DNA of 60,491 bases, filler included, from Ionaspis alba (lineage: Eukaryota), in assembly GCA_964255285.1 (NCBI GenBank). It is 11 parts of 11 records of this genome, joined end to end, with 100 filler letters (N's around TTAATTAATTAA, not from the genome) between each part and the next. Parts side by side here need not be neighbours in the genome. Positions count along the whole stretch, not along the records: positions 11,097 to 16,534 come from CAXUUL010001012.1; 10 more parts are not named here. One strand, written 5' to 3'. The position numbers and the translations under genes were made by a program. Numbering within the stretch: position 1 is the stretch's first letter; every line of letters begins with the position of its first letter. Below, one piece after another: positions 12,112-14,844 of the stretch. Below the pieces are notes generated by a model that was not told the DNA's origin, made no database searches, and saw only the letters and a program-made list of their open reading frames with translations.

Positions 12112-14844
12112 CTACCAGCGGCGGTTGCCACCCATGGGTGCAGAATTAGAGCTGGTGTATCCTCCTCGTCCGCCACCACGTCCACGGCCTGCGCCCCATC
12201 TACCACCTCCGCCACCACCTCCATAGCGGGCCATCTCTGCAAGACGTGGGTCAATCTGCTGCTTGGACTCGGTAAGGACAGCAACGAGATCACGAGCCTG
12301 GGAAGTCGTTAGTACGGGACACTACCATGGCACGTCTTCAATCTCAGAAACGCACCTGTTTAGCATCTGTGGGGGAGTGAATTAGCATAGGTCTTGCATT
12401 ATAGCGAAGGAGGGATGATGCATACTCTCAGTGGTGAACAGCGTGATAGCAGTACCCACGGCTCCAGCACGACCAGTACGTCCAATACGATGAACATAGT
12501 CCTCCGAATTATTGGGATAATCGTAGTTCAACACATGAGTGATGTTTTTGACATCTTATCTGGGGTTAGCATCTCTAAAACACGATCAAGCAAAAATGGA
12601 GCCCAATGGAGGCCGTGTGAAGTCCAAGTGGCTGCTGTCTGCATCGCTCTCTACATCGCTCTCTGCATTGCGGATCATTCCTTCATGGCATTGCTGGTCC
12701 TTGGCATAACAACTTGTGGTAGTCCCTGAAGAAGCAATGGAACAAAAATGCAGCTTGGACGAGGCCAAGCAGAACCCATTCCGCCTCTGTACCCCAAAGG
12801 TACTTGAAAGAGACGGAATGAGAAAGTGTAGCGAGCTACACTGCACTAGAAAGTCCAAAGTTTCTTCTGGCTGAGTAAGCCAGCAGAATTGACACGAAGA
12901 GCCAGGACCAGGTTACGATATCATCGGAGCGCACGGTTGCAGAGAGCAGAGCACCACATCTAAATCACACGACGTCAACCGAAAGGGGGGAGGGGAGAAA
13001 GTGCTAGCTCGCAATCAATCATACCAATACCGCGGGATGCTACGTCAGTAGCAACCATGATCGGGCTCTTTCCCGTCTTAAACTCGTTCAAGACCCAGTC
13101 ACGCTCGTTTTGCTGCTTGTCACCATGGATAGCTATGGACTGTTAGTCAAGATAATTTCAATCGCGGAAGTGGGAATACTGACAGAGCGCGGGCCATCCA
13201 TCCTGGCGAAGGAATCGAGTAATGTCGTCCGCTACACGTTTGGTTCCAGTAAAGATGAGGATCTTGTTGTCCTTGTCGTCCATGATACGTTCCAGGTGCT
13301 TGGCCATCTTCTCACGCTTCTCGAACTCTGAAACGATCTCCACAACCTGGGTGATGCGATGGTTAGCTGACAGATCCATGGATCCAATGTTGACCTGAAT
13401 GTAGTCATGAAGGTAGTCCGACGCAAGTTGGCGAACTTCCTTGGGCCAAGTTGCAGACCACATGCAAGTCTGACGATCGGGCCGAATCTGTCCAATGATT
13501 TTACGGATTTGTGGTTCGAAACCCATGTCCAGCATACGATCAGCCTCATCAAGAACGAGATAAGTAACGCGACGAAGGTTAGTCTTGCCGGACTCAAGCA
13601 TATCAATCAAGCGTCCTGGAGTAGCAATGCAGACTTCGACACCACGGGCTAGATCGCGAATTTGCTGACCCTTGGGGACTCCGCCGTAGACACAGGTGTT
13701 TCGTATCCGGGAGGATTTTCCGAACTTGGTAATTTCCTGTTGAATCTGCACGGCTAGTTCACGAGTTGGTGCAAGCACGAGAACGATAGGACCATCTCCA
13801 GGAGCAAGAAGAGGCTGGGCGTTGATGTGAACGATGGCAGGTAAGCAGTAGGTCAATGTCTTTCCGGAACCAGTCTCAGCAATGCCAACAACATCGCGAC
13901 CAGACAAAGCCATAGGCCAGCCCTGAGATTGGATAGCAGTAGGAGCAGCGAAACCTTGAGCCTTGACCTCACCCATTACATAGGAAGGGAATCCAGCTTC
14001 ATCGAAAGTCTCGACTGGCCTTGGGACATTGGAACCTTGAACAGCGATCTGCTTCTCTTTGCGGAATTCCTCGACCTCACGTTCGGATCTCGCACTGACA
14101 TTTGGGTCTTCTTTGTAGAATGACTTCTCGAATTTGGGCATGGTAGCGAGATCTGACACAAAAAGTTAGTATGAGCATAACACACGAAAATTTTCCCGGA
14201 TAAGCCTACCCCAATGTTGAGTCTTCAAGCCGGCGCCGAGGTTTGACATTCTGTCACCTCCTGCTCCACCGAAGCCGCCACCGCCGTATGAGCCTCCGCC
14301 GTAGCTGCTGTTAGAGGCTCCGTAGCCACCTCCGTTTGAATATCCGTTACTGCCACCATTAGAGTAGCCATTTCTGTATGGAAATTGTCACGTCAGCAAA
14401 TCTTGTCCATATCAGAAAGGGTGATGAGGTGATCTCTCGTAACACCGATTTCGGCCTTTGGAAACCTGGGTGATCCCAGGTCATCCTCAGCCTGACGTGT
14501 TGAGAGCAAAGAATGAGAAGAAAGAAAACGACTGCAGTCACTAGACCTAAGGTTGTCATACCCGTTGGNNNNNNNNNNNNNNNNNNNNNNNNNNNNNNNN
14601 NNNNNNNNNNNNNNNNNNNNNNNNNNNNNNNNNNNNNNNNNNNNNNNNNNNNNNNNNNNNNNNNNNNNTGAGAAGAAAGAAAACGACTGCAGTCACTAGA
14701 CCTAAGGTTGTCATACCCGTTGGAATAGGAGTGTGAGTAGTCTGGCGCTCTCGGATAGCCATTTGAGTAGCCTTTGGAATAATCATCGTACCCGTTGGAG
14801 TATCCTCCATCGCGACCACCACTGTATCCACCACCGTAAGCCAT
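12112..14844 (-). CDS. DBP2: ATP-dependent DEAD-box RNA helicase Dbp2/p68; 7 exons including an 11-nt micro-exon (12356-12366)
   Basis: Motifs [43 protein letters not shown] and [10 protein letters not shown], with RGG/GY tails. Introns at 14374-14716, 14153-14209, 13133-13183, 12555-13024, 12367-12425 and 12298-12355. Confidence 0.97.
12555..13024 (-). ncRNA. Structured 470-nt DBP2 intron (candidate cis-regulatory RNA)
   Basis: GTATGA...GCTAAC...AG intron with at least 8 nested complementary segment pairs (see findings). Confidence 0.7.

What the first reader, a model, noticed from the sequence alone, without database searches (positions are those of the whole stretch)
12555..13024. 470-nt DBP2 intron folds into a nested multibranch RNA
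Seen: this intron is ~8 times longer than the 50-60 nt introns typical here and interrupts motif V (RGI|D). Nested pairs (+ coordinates): CGTGTGA 12614-20/TCACACG 12965-71; GCTCTCTGCA 12658-67/TGCAGAGAGC 12938-47; CTGGTCCT(T)GGC 12694-705/GCCAGGACCAG 12901-11. Inner hairpins are 12753-58/12765-70, 12777-88/12809-20 (with GTACC/GGTAC inside), 12825-32/12835-42 and 12867-72/12878-83. The single mismatch in the 12-bp helix is G-U on the transcribed strand. The fold brings the donor close to the branch point. Established: yeast DBP2 has an unusually long, position-conserved 3' intron that mediates autoregulation. Inference: this is a helicase-sensing splicing switch or an intron-hosted ncRNA.
Basis: partly seen in the sequence, partly recalled or inferred. 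Interest (0 to 1): 0.75.

Follow-up and report, generated by a model that had tools for sequence, protein, structure and literature searches.

The report
Conserved folded intron in DBP2 helicase gene
The unusually long intron of this fungus's DBP2 RNA-helicase gene folds into a set of nested RNA helices that related fungi also keep, so it is probably the element through which the helicase controls its own production.

Summary
Window 13024..12555 (minus strand) is a 470-nt GT-AG intron in a DBP2/DDX5-type helicase gene. It splits motif V (RGI|D) and is about 8 times longer than the gene's four other introns (51-59 nt).

For this sequence alone the folding energy is only marginal (z -1.7; 5 of 100 shuffles fold as well). 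The comparative evidence is what carries the case:
- 26 of 67 related metagenome loci with both flanking exons have an intron at the same codon.
- In 17 close relatives the intron keeps the same rod of nested long-range helices (here called P1-P5) plus tip hairpins. Helix sequences differ but stay complementary.
- Mean z is -2.8 on the sense strand (13 of 13 negative) and -1.0 on the antisense strand.
- All 17 also keep a rare AAG acceptor, a CTAAY branch site, a C/U-rich tract after the donor, and an early in-frame stop if the intron is retained.

There is no Rfam match, and two fungal structured-RNA screens do not mention it.

Best reading: a cis-acting structural splicing element of the known autoregulatory DBP2 intron, plausibly sensing helicase activity as the plant DEAD motif does. 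The sensing step is untested. This scan noted a related helix in another fungal genome (e1-7701720).

The parts
13025..13132 (-). Upstream exon (108 nt) ending ...ATDVASRGI plus the first base of the split Asp codon
   Evidence: Translation; boundaries read
12555..13024 (-). The 470-nt intron (GTATG...CTAAC...AAG), phase 1, splitting DEAD-box motif V
   Evidence: An intron at the same site is seen in 26 of 67 related loci with both flanking exons.
13020..13024 (-). 5' splice site GUAUG
   Evidence: Invariant in all 14 aligned introns
12981..13001 (-). C/U-rich tract just after the donor, unpaired in the fold
   Evidence: A pyrimidine-rich stretch at intron nt 11-60 is present in all 17 relatives.
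12965..12976 (-). P1 5' arm (outer long-range helix)
   Evidence: Pairs with 12609-12620. P1 can form in all 14 relatives using three different sequence versions.
12609..12620 (-). P1 3' arm
   Evidence: duplex mean z -1.8, with 7 of 14 below -1.64
12938..12949 (-). P2 5' arm
Evidence: Duplex mean z -1.7, with 8 of 14 below -1.64.
12632..12671 (-). P2 3' arm region: three tandem 12-nt copies giving three alternative registers
   Evidence: Direct-repeat family D1 and inverted repeats I5, I9, I14
12901..12911 (-). P3a 5' arm
   Evidence: Pairs with 12694-12705 with one bulged base. 73.6% of cells paired across 14 introns (helix 15).
12694..12705 (-). P3a 3' arm
12868..12882 (-). Small hairpin before P4
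   Evidence: I11
12854..12867 (-).
   Evidence: Pairs with 12728-12741 (I2, 50). P4 is present in all 14. Duplex mean z -3.6, with 13 of 14 below -1.64. Covariation.
12728..12741 (-). P4 3' arm
12843..12847 (-). P5 5' arm, holding a conserved acceptor-like UGCAG
   Evidence: Pairs with 12747-12751. UGCAG is at this place in 10 of 17 relatives and an AG in 13 of 17.
12747..12751 (-). P5 3' arm
   Evidence: helix 19, 85% paired where letters exist
12825..12842 (-). Tip hairpin (8 bp, 2-nt loop)
   Evidence: I22. Kept in two diverged relatives in run X3; the one change seen lies in the loop, at 12833.
12775..12822 (-). P6: extended tip hairpin (outer arms 12809-22/12775-88; inner arms 12798-803/12789-94)
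   Evidence: I6. 8 of 12 pairs show changes on both sides in the alignment of 14 (helix 22).
12753..12770 (-). P7 hairpin
   Evidence: helix 3, 95% paired in 10 rows
12565..12569 (-). Branch site CUAAC, 11 nt before the intron end
   Evidence: Invariant or near-invariant columns; 17 of 17 relatives have CTAAY 11-19 nt from the end
12555..12557 (-). 3' splice site AAG (not YAG)
   Evidence: 17 of 17 relatives have AAG. The gene's four other introns end in YAG.
12426..12554 (-). Downstream exon (129 nt), (D)[30 protein letters not shown]...

Best explanation
This is the filamentous-ascomycete-type version of the long, position-conserved regulatory intron of DBP2/DDX5. Its RNA folds into a conserved rod of short nested long-range helices (P1 to P5, each about 5-13 bp, separated by bulges and loops), capped by two or three hairpins.

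The rod removes about 345 nt of path. It leaves about 48 nt between the donor and P1 and about 42 nt between P1 and the branch site. An intron 8 times the normal length, with a weak AAG acceptor, can therefore still be spliced.

Because the helices are in the size range that DEAD-box proteins open, high Dbp2 activity would melt the rod. Splicing would slow, and unspliced RNA would remain. That RNA carries a stop 16 codons into the intron and would be degraded. The result is negative feedback.

Shown here: the intron, its conserved fold, the sense-strand preference, the conserved weak acceptor, and the premature stop.

Inferred: that the fold promotes splicing, and that Dbp2 is what opens it.
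For: Gene identity: the large exon matches yeast DBP2 best (PDB 8ark, E 2.9e-162), then DDX17 and DDX5.

Same-site intron:
- 26 of 67 related loci with both flanking exons have it; 38 of 67 have none.
- GT-AG was verified in 20 plus L038 and L043.
- L007 and L017 are spliced-transcript-like contigs of close relatives joined exactly at RGI|D.

Fold conservation:
- The window's MFE structure projected on a sequence-only MAFFT alignment of 14 introns gives 55.2% of cells paired, against 35-42% when partners are slid. The covariation score is 0.153 against 0.07-0.11, and 0 of 500 shuffles reach it.
- Each relative's own MFE fold, projected on sequences of other groups, pairs 48.2% on register against 35-41% slid. 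All 14 sources beat all 10 slides.
- In a mismatched-window matrix, the homologous arm pairs give the lowest duplex energy for P1-P5.
- P1 is kept with three different sequence versions.
- P4 shows C-G to U-A with a U-G intermediate.
- In the central domain aligned by covariance model, 81.4% of cells pair against 22-54% slid, and 5 of 13 P4 pairs change on both sides.
- One clade of 5 gives 78 consensus pairs, 8 of them compensatory.

Energy: sense z is negative in 13 of 13 (mean -2.77); antisense mean is -1.01; sense is lower in 10 of 13.

Splicing signals:
- AAG acceptor in 17 of 17, CTAAY in 17 of 17, and an in-frame stop 16-99 codons into the intron in 17 of 17.
- RAG acceptors are 5.7% in Fusarium core genes (PMC5677156, passages).

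Precedent:
- The yeast intron mediates autoregulation and is relieved in a helicase-dead mutant (Barta and Iggo 1995, as cited in PMC4695336, passages).
- The plant DEAD hairpin senses DRH1 helicase activity. DEAD-box proteins unwind about 10-15 bp efficiently (bioRxiv 10.64898/2026.01.23.701338, sections read).
Against: - No RNA data: no listed run is on record as RNA, so neither retention nor regulation is shown.
- The window's own fold is only marginal (z -1.7), and its antisense strand scores better.
- 3 of 13 relatives have z above -0.7 (L004, L001, L012).
- RNAalifold on the raw 14-sequence alignment kept only 8 pairs, and none on two central-domain alignments, because MAFFT misregisters the arms.
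- Two of the five measures are not above shuffles: pairs with double changes reached by 107 of 500, further pair types by 361 of 500. In one search one of the five is only weakly above them (further pair types reached by 31 of 500).
- The covariance model of the central domain did not find 7 relatives (L006, L008, L011, L014, L020, L038, L043) at E up to 0.3 with filters off.
- P3b does not form in the window, and P5 is a local hairpin in one clade.
- The outermost pairing next to the donor (P0) is not above chance (mean z -0.06).
- The helix-by-helix comparisons were fitted by duplex search and read by eye.
- Relatives are unnamed metagenome contigs, and some are close pairs (L001/L002, L012/L073), so there are roughly 11 independent lineages.
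Confidence: 0.55

Rival explanations
1. Constitutive zipper only. The conserved helices are a structural splicing enhancer needed to remove a long intron. The intron's length and regulation depend on something else (bound proteins, decay factors), and Dbp2 does not sense the fold.
For: Long-range pairing between the donor side and the branch side is a known splicing aid in yeast introns (RPL7B 'zipper stem', PMC12311795, abstract). The geometry here fits it.
Against: A pure enhancer does not explain three things. One is why a weak AAG acceptor is kept in 17 of 17. Another is why the intron stays long instead of being shortened. The third is why several helix sequences (P4, the UGCAG of P5) are conserved beyond their pairing. 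Autoregulation through this intron is reported in yeast (cited in PMC4695336).
Confidence: 0.2
2. Masked alternative splice site, as in the plant DEAD motif. Helix P5 (with P4) hides the acceptor-like UGCAG at 12843-12847. Opening it by Dbp2 diverts splicing to a non-coding isoform.
For: UGCAG sits at the same place in 10 of 17 relatives, and an AG in 13 of 17, while the rest of P5 varies. The plant precedent comes from PMC12218528 and the 2026 preprint.
Against: There is no good CTRAY branch motif within reach upstream of that AG in most relatives (read). P5 is a local hairpin, not long-range, in one clade. 4 of 17 lack the AG. No RNA data exist.
Confidence: 0.12
3. Intron-hosted stable RNA. 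The excised, highly structured intron persists and acts in trans, for instance by occupying Dbp2 or spliceosome parts.
For: Run X1 (kind guessed as RNA) has two 151-nt contigs. One ends exactly at the intron's first base (13024). The other ends at 12560, 5 nt before the intron's last base. No contig of this organism covers the exons. This looks like the two ends of one ~465-nt molecule. Yeast has stable excised linear introns, defined by a short distance from branch point to 3' splice site (abstracts of 10.1101/426049 and 10.64898/2026.01.21.700889). Here that distance is 11 nt.
Against: The depth is only 2.2-2.7, in one run whose RNA nature is a guess. The tool drops human-like reads, so the missing exon cover means little. 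A short distance from branch point to acceptor is normal in these fungi. No Rfam family matches.
Confidence: 0.08
4. No selected RNA structure. The helices are chance, or shared ancestry plus base composition.
For: The single-sequence z is only -1.7. Shuffle controls ignore relatedness, as the tool itself warns. My helix alignments were structure-guided.
Against: Slide controls, which keep relatedness, are well below the on-register values. Different helix sequences in different clades stay complementary. Sense z is stronger than antisense z in 10 of 13.
Confidence: 0.05

Closest known systems
S. cerevisiae DBP2 intron (Barta and Iggo 1995, EMBO J; not held here, known to me only through citing passages in PMC4695336)
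   Same: [quoted passage not shown] Negative autoregulation that depends on the helicase.
   Different: My searches found no conserved secondary structure described for the yeast intron. I could not fetch the yeast sequence, so I cannot say whether it shares this fold.
S. pombe dbp2 intron 2, a 'decay-promoting intron' bound by Mmi1 (Kilchert et al. 2015, PMC4695336, passages read)
   Same: Same gene and same conserved intron. It is poorly spliced, and the unspliced RNA is degraded, which lowers Dbp2 levels.
   Different: That mechanism relies on TNAAAC motifs. Here 6 such motifs occur in 17 introns, against about 5.9 expected, so there is no enrichment. The conserved feature here is a fold.
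Plant DEAD motif in DRH1/RH14 and RH46 (PMC12218528, passages; bioRxiv 10.64898/2026.01.23.701338, sections 3, 5, 14 read)
   Same: A conserved RNA structure inside a long intron of a DDX5/DBP2-type helicase gene (the preprint discusses DRH1 alongside human DDX5). It is shown to sense that helicase's activity and give negative feedback through splicing.
   Different: The plant element is one ~20-bp hairpin over an alternative 3' splice site, and its authors call it plant-specific. Here there are five or more nested long-range helices spanning about 370 nt. An alternative site is only a possibility. No sequence likeness was seen.
RPL7B intron 'zipper stem' (PMC12311795, abstract only)
   Same: [quoted passage not shown] It acts as a structural splicing enhancer that the gene's own product counteracts.
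   Different: The regulator there is a ribosomal protein that stabilises an alternative structure. Here the proposed regulator is a helicase that would melt the stems.

Membership tests
Position-conserved long regulatory intron of DBP2/DDX5 | Host gene is a DBP2/DDX5 orthologue | tested here: met
   phmmer against PDB: DBP2 8ark E 2.9e-162, then DDX17, then DDX5
Position-conserved long regulatory intron of DBP2/DDX5 | Intron lies at the conserved site in helicase motif V | tested here: met
   RGI|D, phase 1. The same site is used in 26 of 67 related loci. That the yeast and human introns sit at this same codon is taken from the literature ('conserved with respect to its position', PMC4695336) and was not checked on their sequences.
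Position-conserved long regulatory intron of DBP2/DDX5 | Much longer than the organism's usual introns | tested here: met
   470 nt against 57, 51, 59 and 58 nt in the same gene. Relatives are 414-899 nt.
Position-conserved long regulatory intron of DBP2/DDX5 | Inefficient splicing and negative autoregulation by the helicase | not testable with these tools
   No RNA run listed. Only indirect signs: the AAG acceptor and the premature stop.
Mmi1-dependent decay-promoting intron (S. pombe) | Cluster of TNAAAC motifs in the intron | tested here: not met
   0 in the window's intron; 6 in 17 introns against about 5.9 expected
Plant DEAD motif | Single conserved hairpin of about 20 bp | tested here: not met
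   The conserved structure is a set of nested long-range helices of 5-13 bp
Plant DEAD motif | [quoted passage not shown] | tested here: inconclusive
   An acceptor-like UGCAG lies in the P5 arm in 10 of 17. There is no RNA evidence, and the upstream branch motifs are weak.
Structural splicing enhancer ('zipper stem') | Pairing between a region shortly after the 5' splice site and a region shortly before the branch point | tested here: met
   P1 arms start 48 nt after the donor and end 42 nt before the branch A. P1 can form in all 14 relatives.
Structural splicing enhancer ('zipper stem') | Disrupting the stem lowers splicing and restoring it rescues | not testable with these tools
   Needs a reporter experiment
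Any Rfam 15 family (snoRNA, miRNA and others) | Match to a curated covariance model | tested here: not met
   0 matches at E up to 5 over 11100-14500, both strands
Stable excised linear introns (yeast) | Accumulates after splicing as a discrete RNA | tested here: inconclusive
   Two low-depth contigs ending at the intron's ends, in a run only guessed to be RNA

The most novel reading that the evidence does not exclude
A whole branch of filamentous ascomycetes gauges the activity of its main RNA-remodelling helicase with a dedicated RNA 'ruler'. The ruler is a rod of five or more short helices in the DBP2 intron. Each helix is within DEAD-box unwinding range, and their stepwise melting sets the splicing rate of the helicase's own message. 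The excised rod then persists as a discrete structured RNA that also holds Dbp2. This would be a fungal counterpart, independently built, of the plant DEAD sensor in the orthologous gene.
Probability: 0.2. Interest if true: 0.85.

Novelty: new variant of a known kind. Interest (0 to 1): 0.65.

Why it matters
It has been reported since 1995 that yeast Dbp2 limits its own production through this intron. The 2015 fission-yeast paper still says that the factors regulating splicing of the dbp2 intron are unknown (PMC4695336).

A conserved, covarying set of helices gives defined targets for testing: P1 and P4 arms to break and restore, and a weak AAG acceptor to strengthen. These experiments are possible in model fungi.

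If the fold senses helicase activity, fungi and plants would have built different RNA structures for the same task in the orthologous gene. That would argue that 'helicase sensors' are a general way to keep RNA-remodelling capacity in balance.

Tried and rejected
- **Own genome:** none is held for this window, so genome-wide intron [13 protein letters not shown] repeat copies could not be checked.
- **RNA evidence:** no RNA holder was listed by the look-up of sequencing runs. The laid runs were contigs only.
- **Rfam:** nothing found.
- **RNAalifold on raw alignments:** 8 pairs on the alignment of all 14. 0 pairs on two central-domain alignments, because MAFFT shifts the 5' arms by 1-10 columns.
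- **Other alignment attempts:** E-INS-i and a structure-encoded MAFFT alignment did not help.
- **Covariance model R1 of the central domain:** it found the window (E 1e-5), L013 and L010 beyond its 6 seeds. It did not find L006, L008, L011, L014, L020, L038 or L043, even with filters off. Its alignment also carries one spurious antisense row. A full-length model exceeds the tool's 400-column limit.
- **Outermost pairing next to the donor (P0):** not above shuffles (mean z -0.06).
- **Pairing of the donor region with the downstream exon (inverted repeat I7):** not conserved (mean z -0.03 over 17).
- **Mmi1-type TNAAAC motifs:** not enriched.
- **More distant same-site introns** (L019, L021-L023, L047; 564-1592 nt): they lack the conserved motifs. 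I did not test them for a comparable fold.
- **Literature:**
  - Searches turned up no description of a conserved fold in a fungal DBP2 intron.
  - Li and Breaker 2017 (PMC5640933) and Gao, Jones and Rivas 2021 (PMC8216456) have 0 occurrences of DBP2, helicase or DEAD in their main texts.
  - The supplement of PMC8216456 could not be read and might list it.
  - Barta and Iggo 1995 is not held.
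Full report
**What is there**

The gene on the minus strand of 12112-14400 is a DBP2/DDX5-type DEAD-box helicase. Its 322-residue large exon matches yeast DBP2 best among solved structures (8ark, E 2.9e-162), followed by DDX17 and DDX5.

Reading the minus strand gives five introns:

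| Intron (minus strand) | Length (nt) | Acceptor |
|---|---|---|
| 14209..14153 | 57 | YAG |
| 13183..13133 | 51 | YAG |
| 13024..12555 | 470 | AAG |
| 12425..12367 | 59 | YAG |
| 12355..12298 | 58 | YAG |

An 11-nt micro-exon lies between the last two introns.

The 470-nt intron:
- starts GTATG;
- has CTAAC 11 nt before its end;
- is phase 1, between ...ATDVASRGI and DVKNITHV..., that is, inside helicase motif V. The motif name is from my own knowledge.

Read through, the intron brings a stop after 16 codons.

Every pair listed is in the sequence. There are two small corrections:
- The helix 12694-705/12901-11 has a bulged base rather than a mismatch.
- The '12-bp helix with one mismatch' is 12777-88/12809-20. 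Its odd pair is indeed G-U on the transcribed strand.

The minimum-free-energy fold of the transcribed strand nests most of these helices as described. For 12938-47 it uses the alternative partner 12632-43.

On its own the fold is not convincing:
- Sense strand: -151.2 kcal/mol, z -1.70, and 5 of 100 dinucleotide shuffles fold as well.
- Antisense strand: z -3.04.
- Rfam 15 gives no match at E up to 5 on either strand.

**Relatives**

No genome is held for the window. I therefore used the large exon to fetch 80 related loci from public metagenome contigs.

| Outcome for the 80 loci | Loci |
|---|---|
| Both flanking exons found by tblastn | 67 |
| – no intron at this site | 38 |
| – gap of 402-1595 nt at this codon | 26 |
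| – other gaps (L054, L058, L059) | 3 |
| One or both flanking exons not found | 13 |

- The 38 without an intron include L007 and L017. These look like spliced transcripts of close relatives, joined exactly at RGI|D.
- GT-AG at the identical phase was checked in 20 of the 26.
- L038 and L043 were checked by hand. Their downstream exon is split by a further intron.

Seventeen introns, counting the window, come from loci with 80-91% protein identity in the large exon. I call these the close set: WIN, L001, L002, L004, L005, L006, L008, L010, L011, L012, L013, L014, L018, L020, L038, L043, L073. L016 and L044 duplicate L014 and L043 and were left out.

These contigs are unnamed. That they are Pezizomycotina is my inference. 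Notes of this scan call the window's genome a lichen-type fungus.

**Shared signals**

In the close set:
- 17 of 17 end in AAG.
- 17 of 17 have CTAAY 11-19 nt before the end.
- 16 of 17 start GTATG.
- All have a C/U-rich stretch after the donor.
- All bring an in-frame stop 16-99 codons into the intron.

In Fusarium core genes 94.3% of acceptors are YAG and 5.7% are RAG, and the median intron is 57 nt (PMC5677156, passages). The neighbouring intron bases have diverged freely here. An AAG kept in every lineage therefore looks selected.

**Shared fold**

The MFE folds of all 14 first-aligned introns have the same plan. From the outside in:
- an unpaired pyrimidine tract;
- an outer helix, P1;
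- P2 (plus a further stretch, P2b, in some lineages);
- P3a;
- P3b;
- the central P4;
- P5;
- two or three tip hairpins.

The 3' arms follow in reverse order, and 40-80 nt remain before the branch site.

Tests of this plan:

1. *Window fold projected on relatives.*
   - The window's fold was projected on the sequence-only alignment A1 of 14 introns.
   - 55.2% of cells pair, against 35-42% with partners slid by 1-3 columns.
   - Shuffles give 52.3 ± 0.7%, and 0 of 500 reach the observed value.
   - The covariation score is 0.153 against 0.07-0.11.
   - The best helices are P5 (85%), P4 (80%), the 12945-49/12644-48 helix of the MFE fold (77.6%), P3a (73.6%) and P1 (64%).
   - 'Further pair types' was only weakly above shuffles (31 of 500).
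2. *Cross-validation.*
   - This removes the bias of using the window's own fold.
   - I projected each intron's own MFE fold only onto sequences of other groups.
   - 48.2% pair on register, against 35-41% at slides of -5 to +5.
   - All 14 sources beat all ten slides.
3. *Duplex energies.*

   Energies were computed between homologous windows and compared with 200 shuffles of the 3' window.

   | Helix | Mean z | Sequences with z below -1.64 |
   |---|---|---|
   | P4 | -3.6 | 13 of 14 |
   | P1 | -1.8 | 7 of 14 |
   | P2 | -1.7 | 8 of 14 |
   | P3a | -1.2 | 6 of 14 |
   | P0 | -0.06 | 1 of 14 |

   - The P1 windows were misplaced for one clade.
   - In the matrix of mismatched windows the true partner is the best for P1-P5.
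4. *Helix by helix* (read by eye).
   - P1 can form in all 14 with three different sequence versions. Between them I read at least four positions where both sides changed and pairing is kept.
   - P4 shows C-G in seven sequences, U-A in four and U-G in one.
   - L043 and L038 replace the P4 core by other complementary sequences.
5. *Covariance model.*
   - Model R1 of the central domain was built from six relatives.
   - It finds the window at 12726-12868(-) with E 1e-5.
   - On its alignment of ten rows, one of them spurious, 81.4% of cells pair against 22-54% slid.
   - The covariation score is 0.206, reached by 1 of 500 shuffles.
   - 5 of 13 P4 pairs change on both sides.
   - Two measures there are not above shuffles (reached by 107 and 361 of 500).
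6. *One clade alone.*
   - A clade of five gives 78 consensus pairs, 8 of them compensatory, in the same nested order.
7. *Whole-intron energy*.
   - Sense z is negative in 13 of 13, ranging from -0.42 to -6.28 with mean -2.77. 10 of 13 are at or below -1.68.
   - Antisense mean z is -1.01.
   - Sense is lower in 10 of 13. The exceptions are the window, L012 and L013.
8. *Independent look.*
   - Run X3 holds two diverged relatives.
   - Their DBP2 contigs align inside the intron only at islands: 12555-77, 12658-81, 12780-12846 and 12927-13024 in one, and the 12828-49 hairpin in the other.
   - These islands coincide with helix arms. The one change shown in the hairpin lies in its loop.

**Limits**

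- The raw alignments are poor.
  - RNAalifold kept 8 pairs on all 14.
  - It kept none on two central-domain alignments.
- The covariance model missed seven relatives even without filters. The inner part of the domain is therefore not conserved in sequence across the whole set.
- P3b does not form in the window. P5 is local in one clade.
- About 11 lineages are independent.
- No phylogeny-aware test (R-scape) could be run.
- No RNA data exist for this organism.

**How it most likely works**

The rod takes about 345 nt out of the path between donor and branch site. This is the geometry of the 'zipper stems' that aid splicing of long yeast introns (PMC12311795, abstract).

A long intron in a genome tuned to ~55-nt introns, a conserved weak acceptor and an early stop on retention all fit a deliberately inefficient, regulated intron.

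Three precedents bear on the mechanism:
- The same intron mediates helicase-dependent autoregulation in budding yeast, and Mmi1-linked decay in fission yeast (PMC4695336, passages).
- In plants a hairpin in a long intron of DRH1, a helicase the authors relate to human DDX5, has been shown to sense the helicase's activity.
- The authors of the plant work note that DEAD-box proteins open about 10-15 bp efficiently (preprint sections read).

Every helix here is 5-13 bp between bulges.

I therefore favour a structural splicing enhancer that Dbp2 itself can melt, giving negative feedback (confidence 0.55).

Rivals:
- a constitutive zipper without sensing (0.2);
- a masked internal acceptor, as in plants (0.12);
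- a stable excised RNA acting in trans (0.08);
- no selected structure (0.05).

Mmi1-type motifs are not enriched.

**Novelty**

The long conserved intron and its autoregulatory role are known. So is the idea of a helicase-sensing intron structure, in plants, where its authors call it plant-specific.

I found no description of a conserved fold in a fungal DBP2 intron:
- searches found none;
- the two fungal structured-RNA screens have no mention in their main texts, and one supplement was unreadable.

That fits P5 here, and this report extends it to a multi-helix architecture in 17 introns.

I file it as a new variant of a known kind.

Noticed in passing
window 12560-12706 and 12874-13024: Run X1 (kind only guessed as RNA) has two contigs of exactly 151 nt at depth 2.2-2.7. 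One ends at the intron's first base (13024). The other ends at 12560, just after a CAG that lies 5 nt before the AAG acceptor. No contig of this organism covers the exons there. This looks like the two ends of one excised-intron molecule of about 465 nt, but the evidence is thin.
   Followed up: partly
window 12560-12562 (minus strand CAG), 5 nt upstream of the acceptor: A CAG lies only 6 nt after the branch A. Using it instead of the AAG would add 5 nt and shift the frame to a stop within 11 codons. L004 has an AAG in a similar place; most relatives have no AG there.
   Followed up: partly
window 12634-12671: Three tandem 12-nt copies form the 3' arm region of helix P2, giving three alternative pairing registers. 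Relatives have a single copy, so this is a lineage-specific triplication.
   Followed up: partly
window 12356-12366 (minus strand): An 11-nt micro-exon (the two remaining bases of the split Asn codon, then Ala-Lys-Gln), flanked by 59- and 58-nt introns near the 3' end of the DBP2 gene.
   Followed up: no
window 12981-13001; same place in all 17 related introns: A C/U-rich, G-poor tract directly after the donor (G-rich on the + strand). It is conserved in composition but not in sequence, and is unpaired in the folds. It could be a protein or helicase landing site; this is unexplained.
   Followed up: partly
L018:2432-3330: This relative's intron is 899 nt because a run of short tandem repeats has expanded in its 5' half. 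It still keeps the central helix, the CTAAC branch site and the AAG acceptor, though with a GTGAGT donor.
   Followed up: partly
L019, L021-L024, L028, L047, L068, L069: More distant relatives (54-76% protein identity) also have an intron at this very codon, with gaps of about 400-1600 nt between the flanking exon matches. The five I scanned (L019, L021-L023, L047) lack the sequence motifs of the close set. Whether they fold in a comparable way was not tested.
   Followed up: no
L038:4684-4900 and L043:4788-4990: In these two lineages the exon downstream of the long intron is split by additional short introns that the window's gene lacks.
   Followed up: no
window 11000-11097 and about 14557-14665: Runs of N (withheld or masked stretches). 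The second interrupts the Gly/Tyr-rich N-terminal coding part of the DBP2 gene, so the 5' end of the gene model could not be completed.
   Followed up: no
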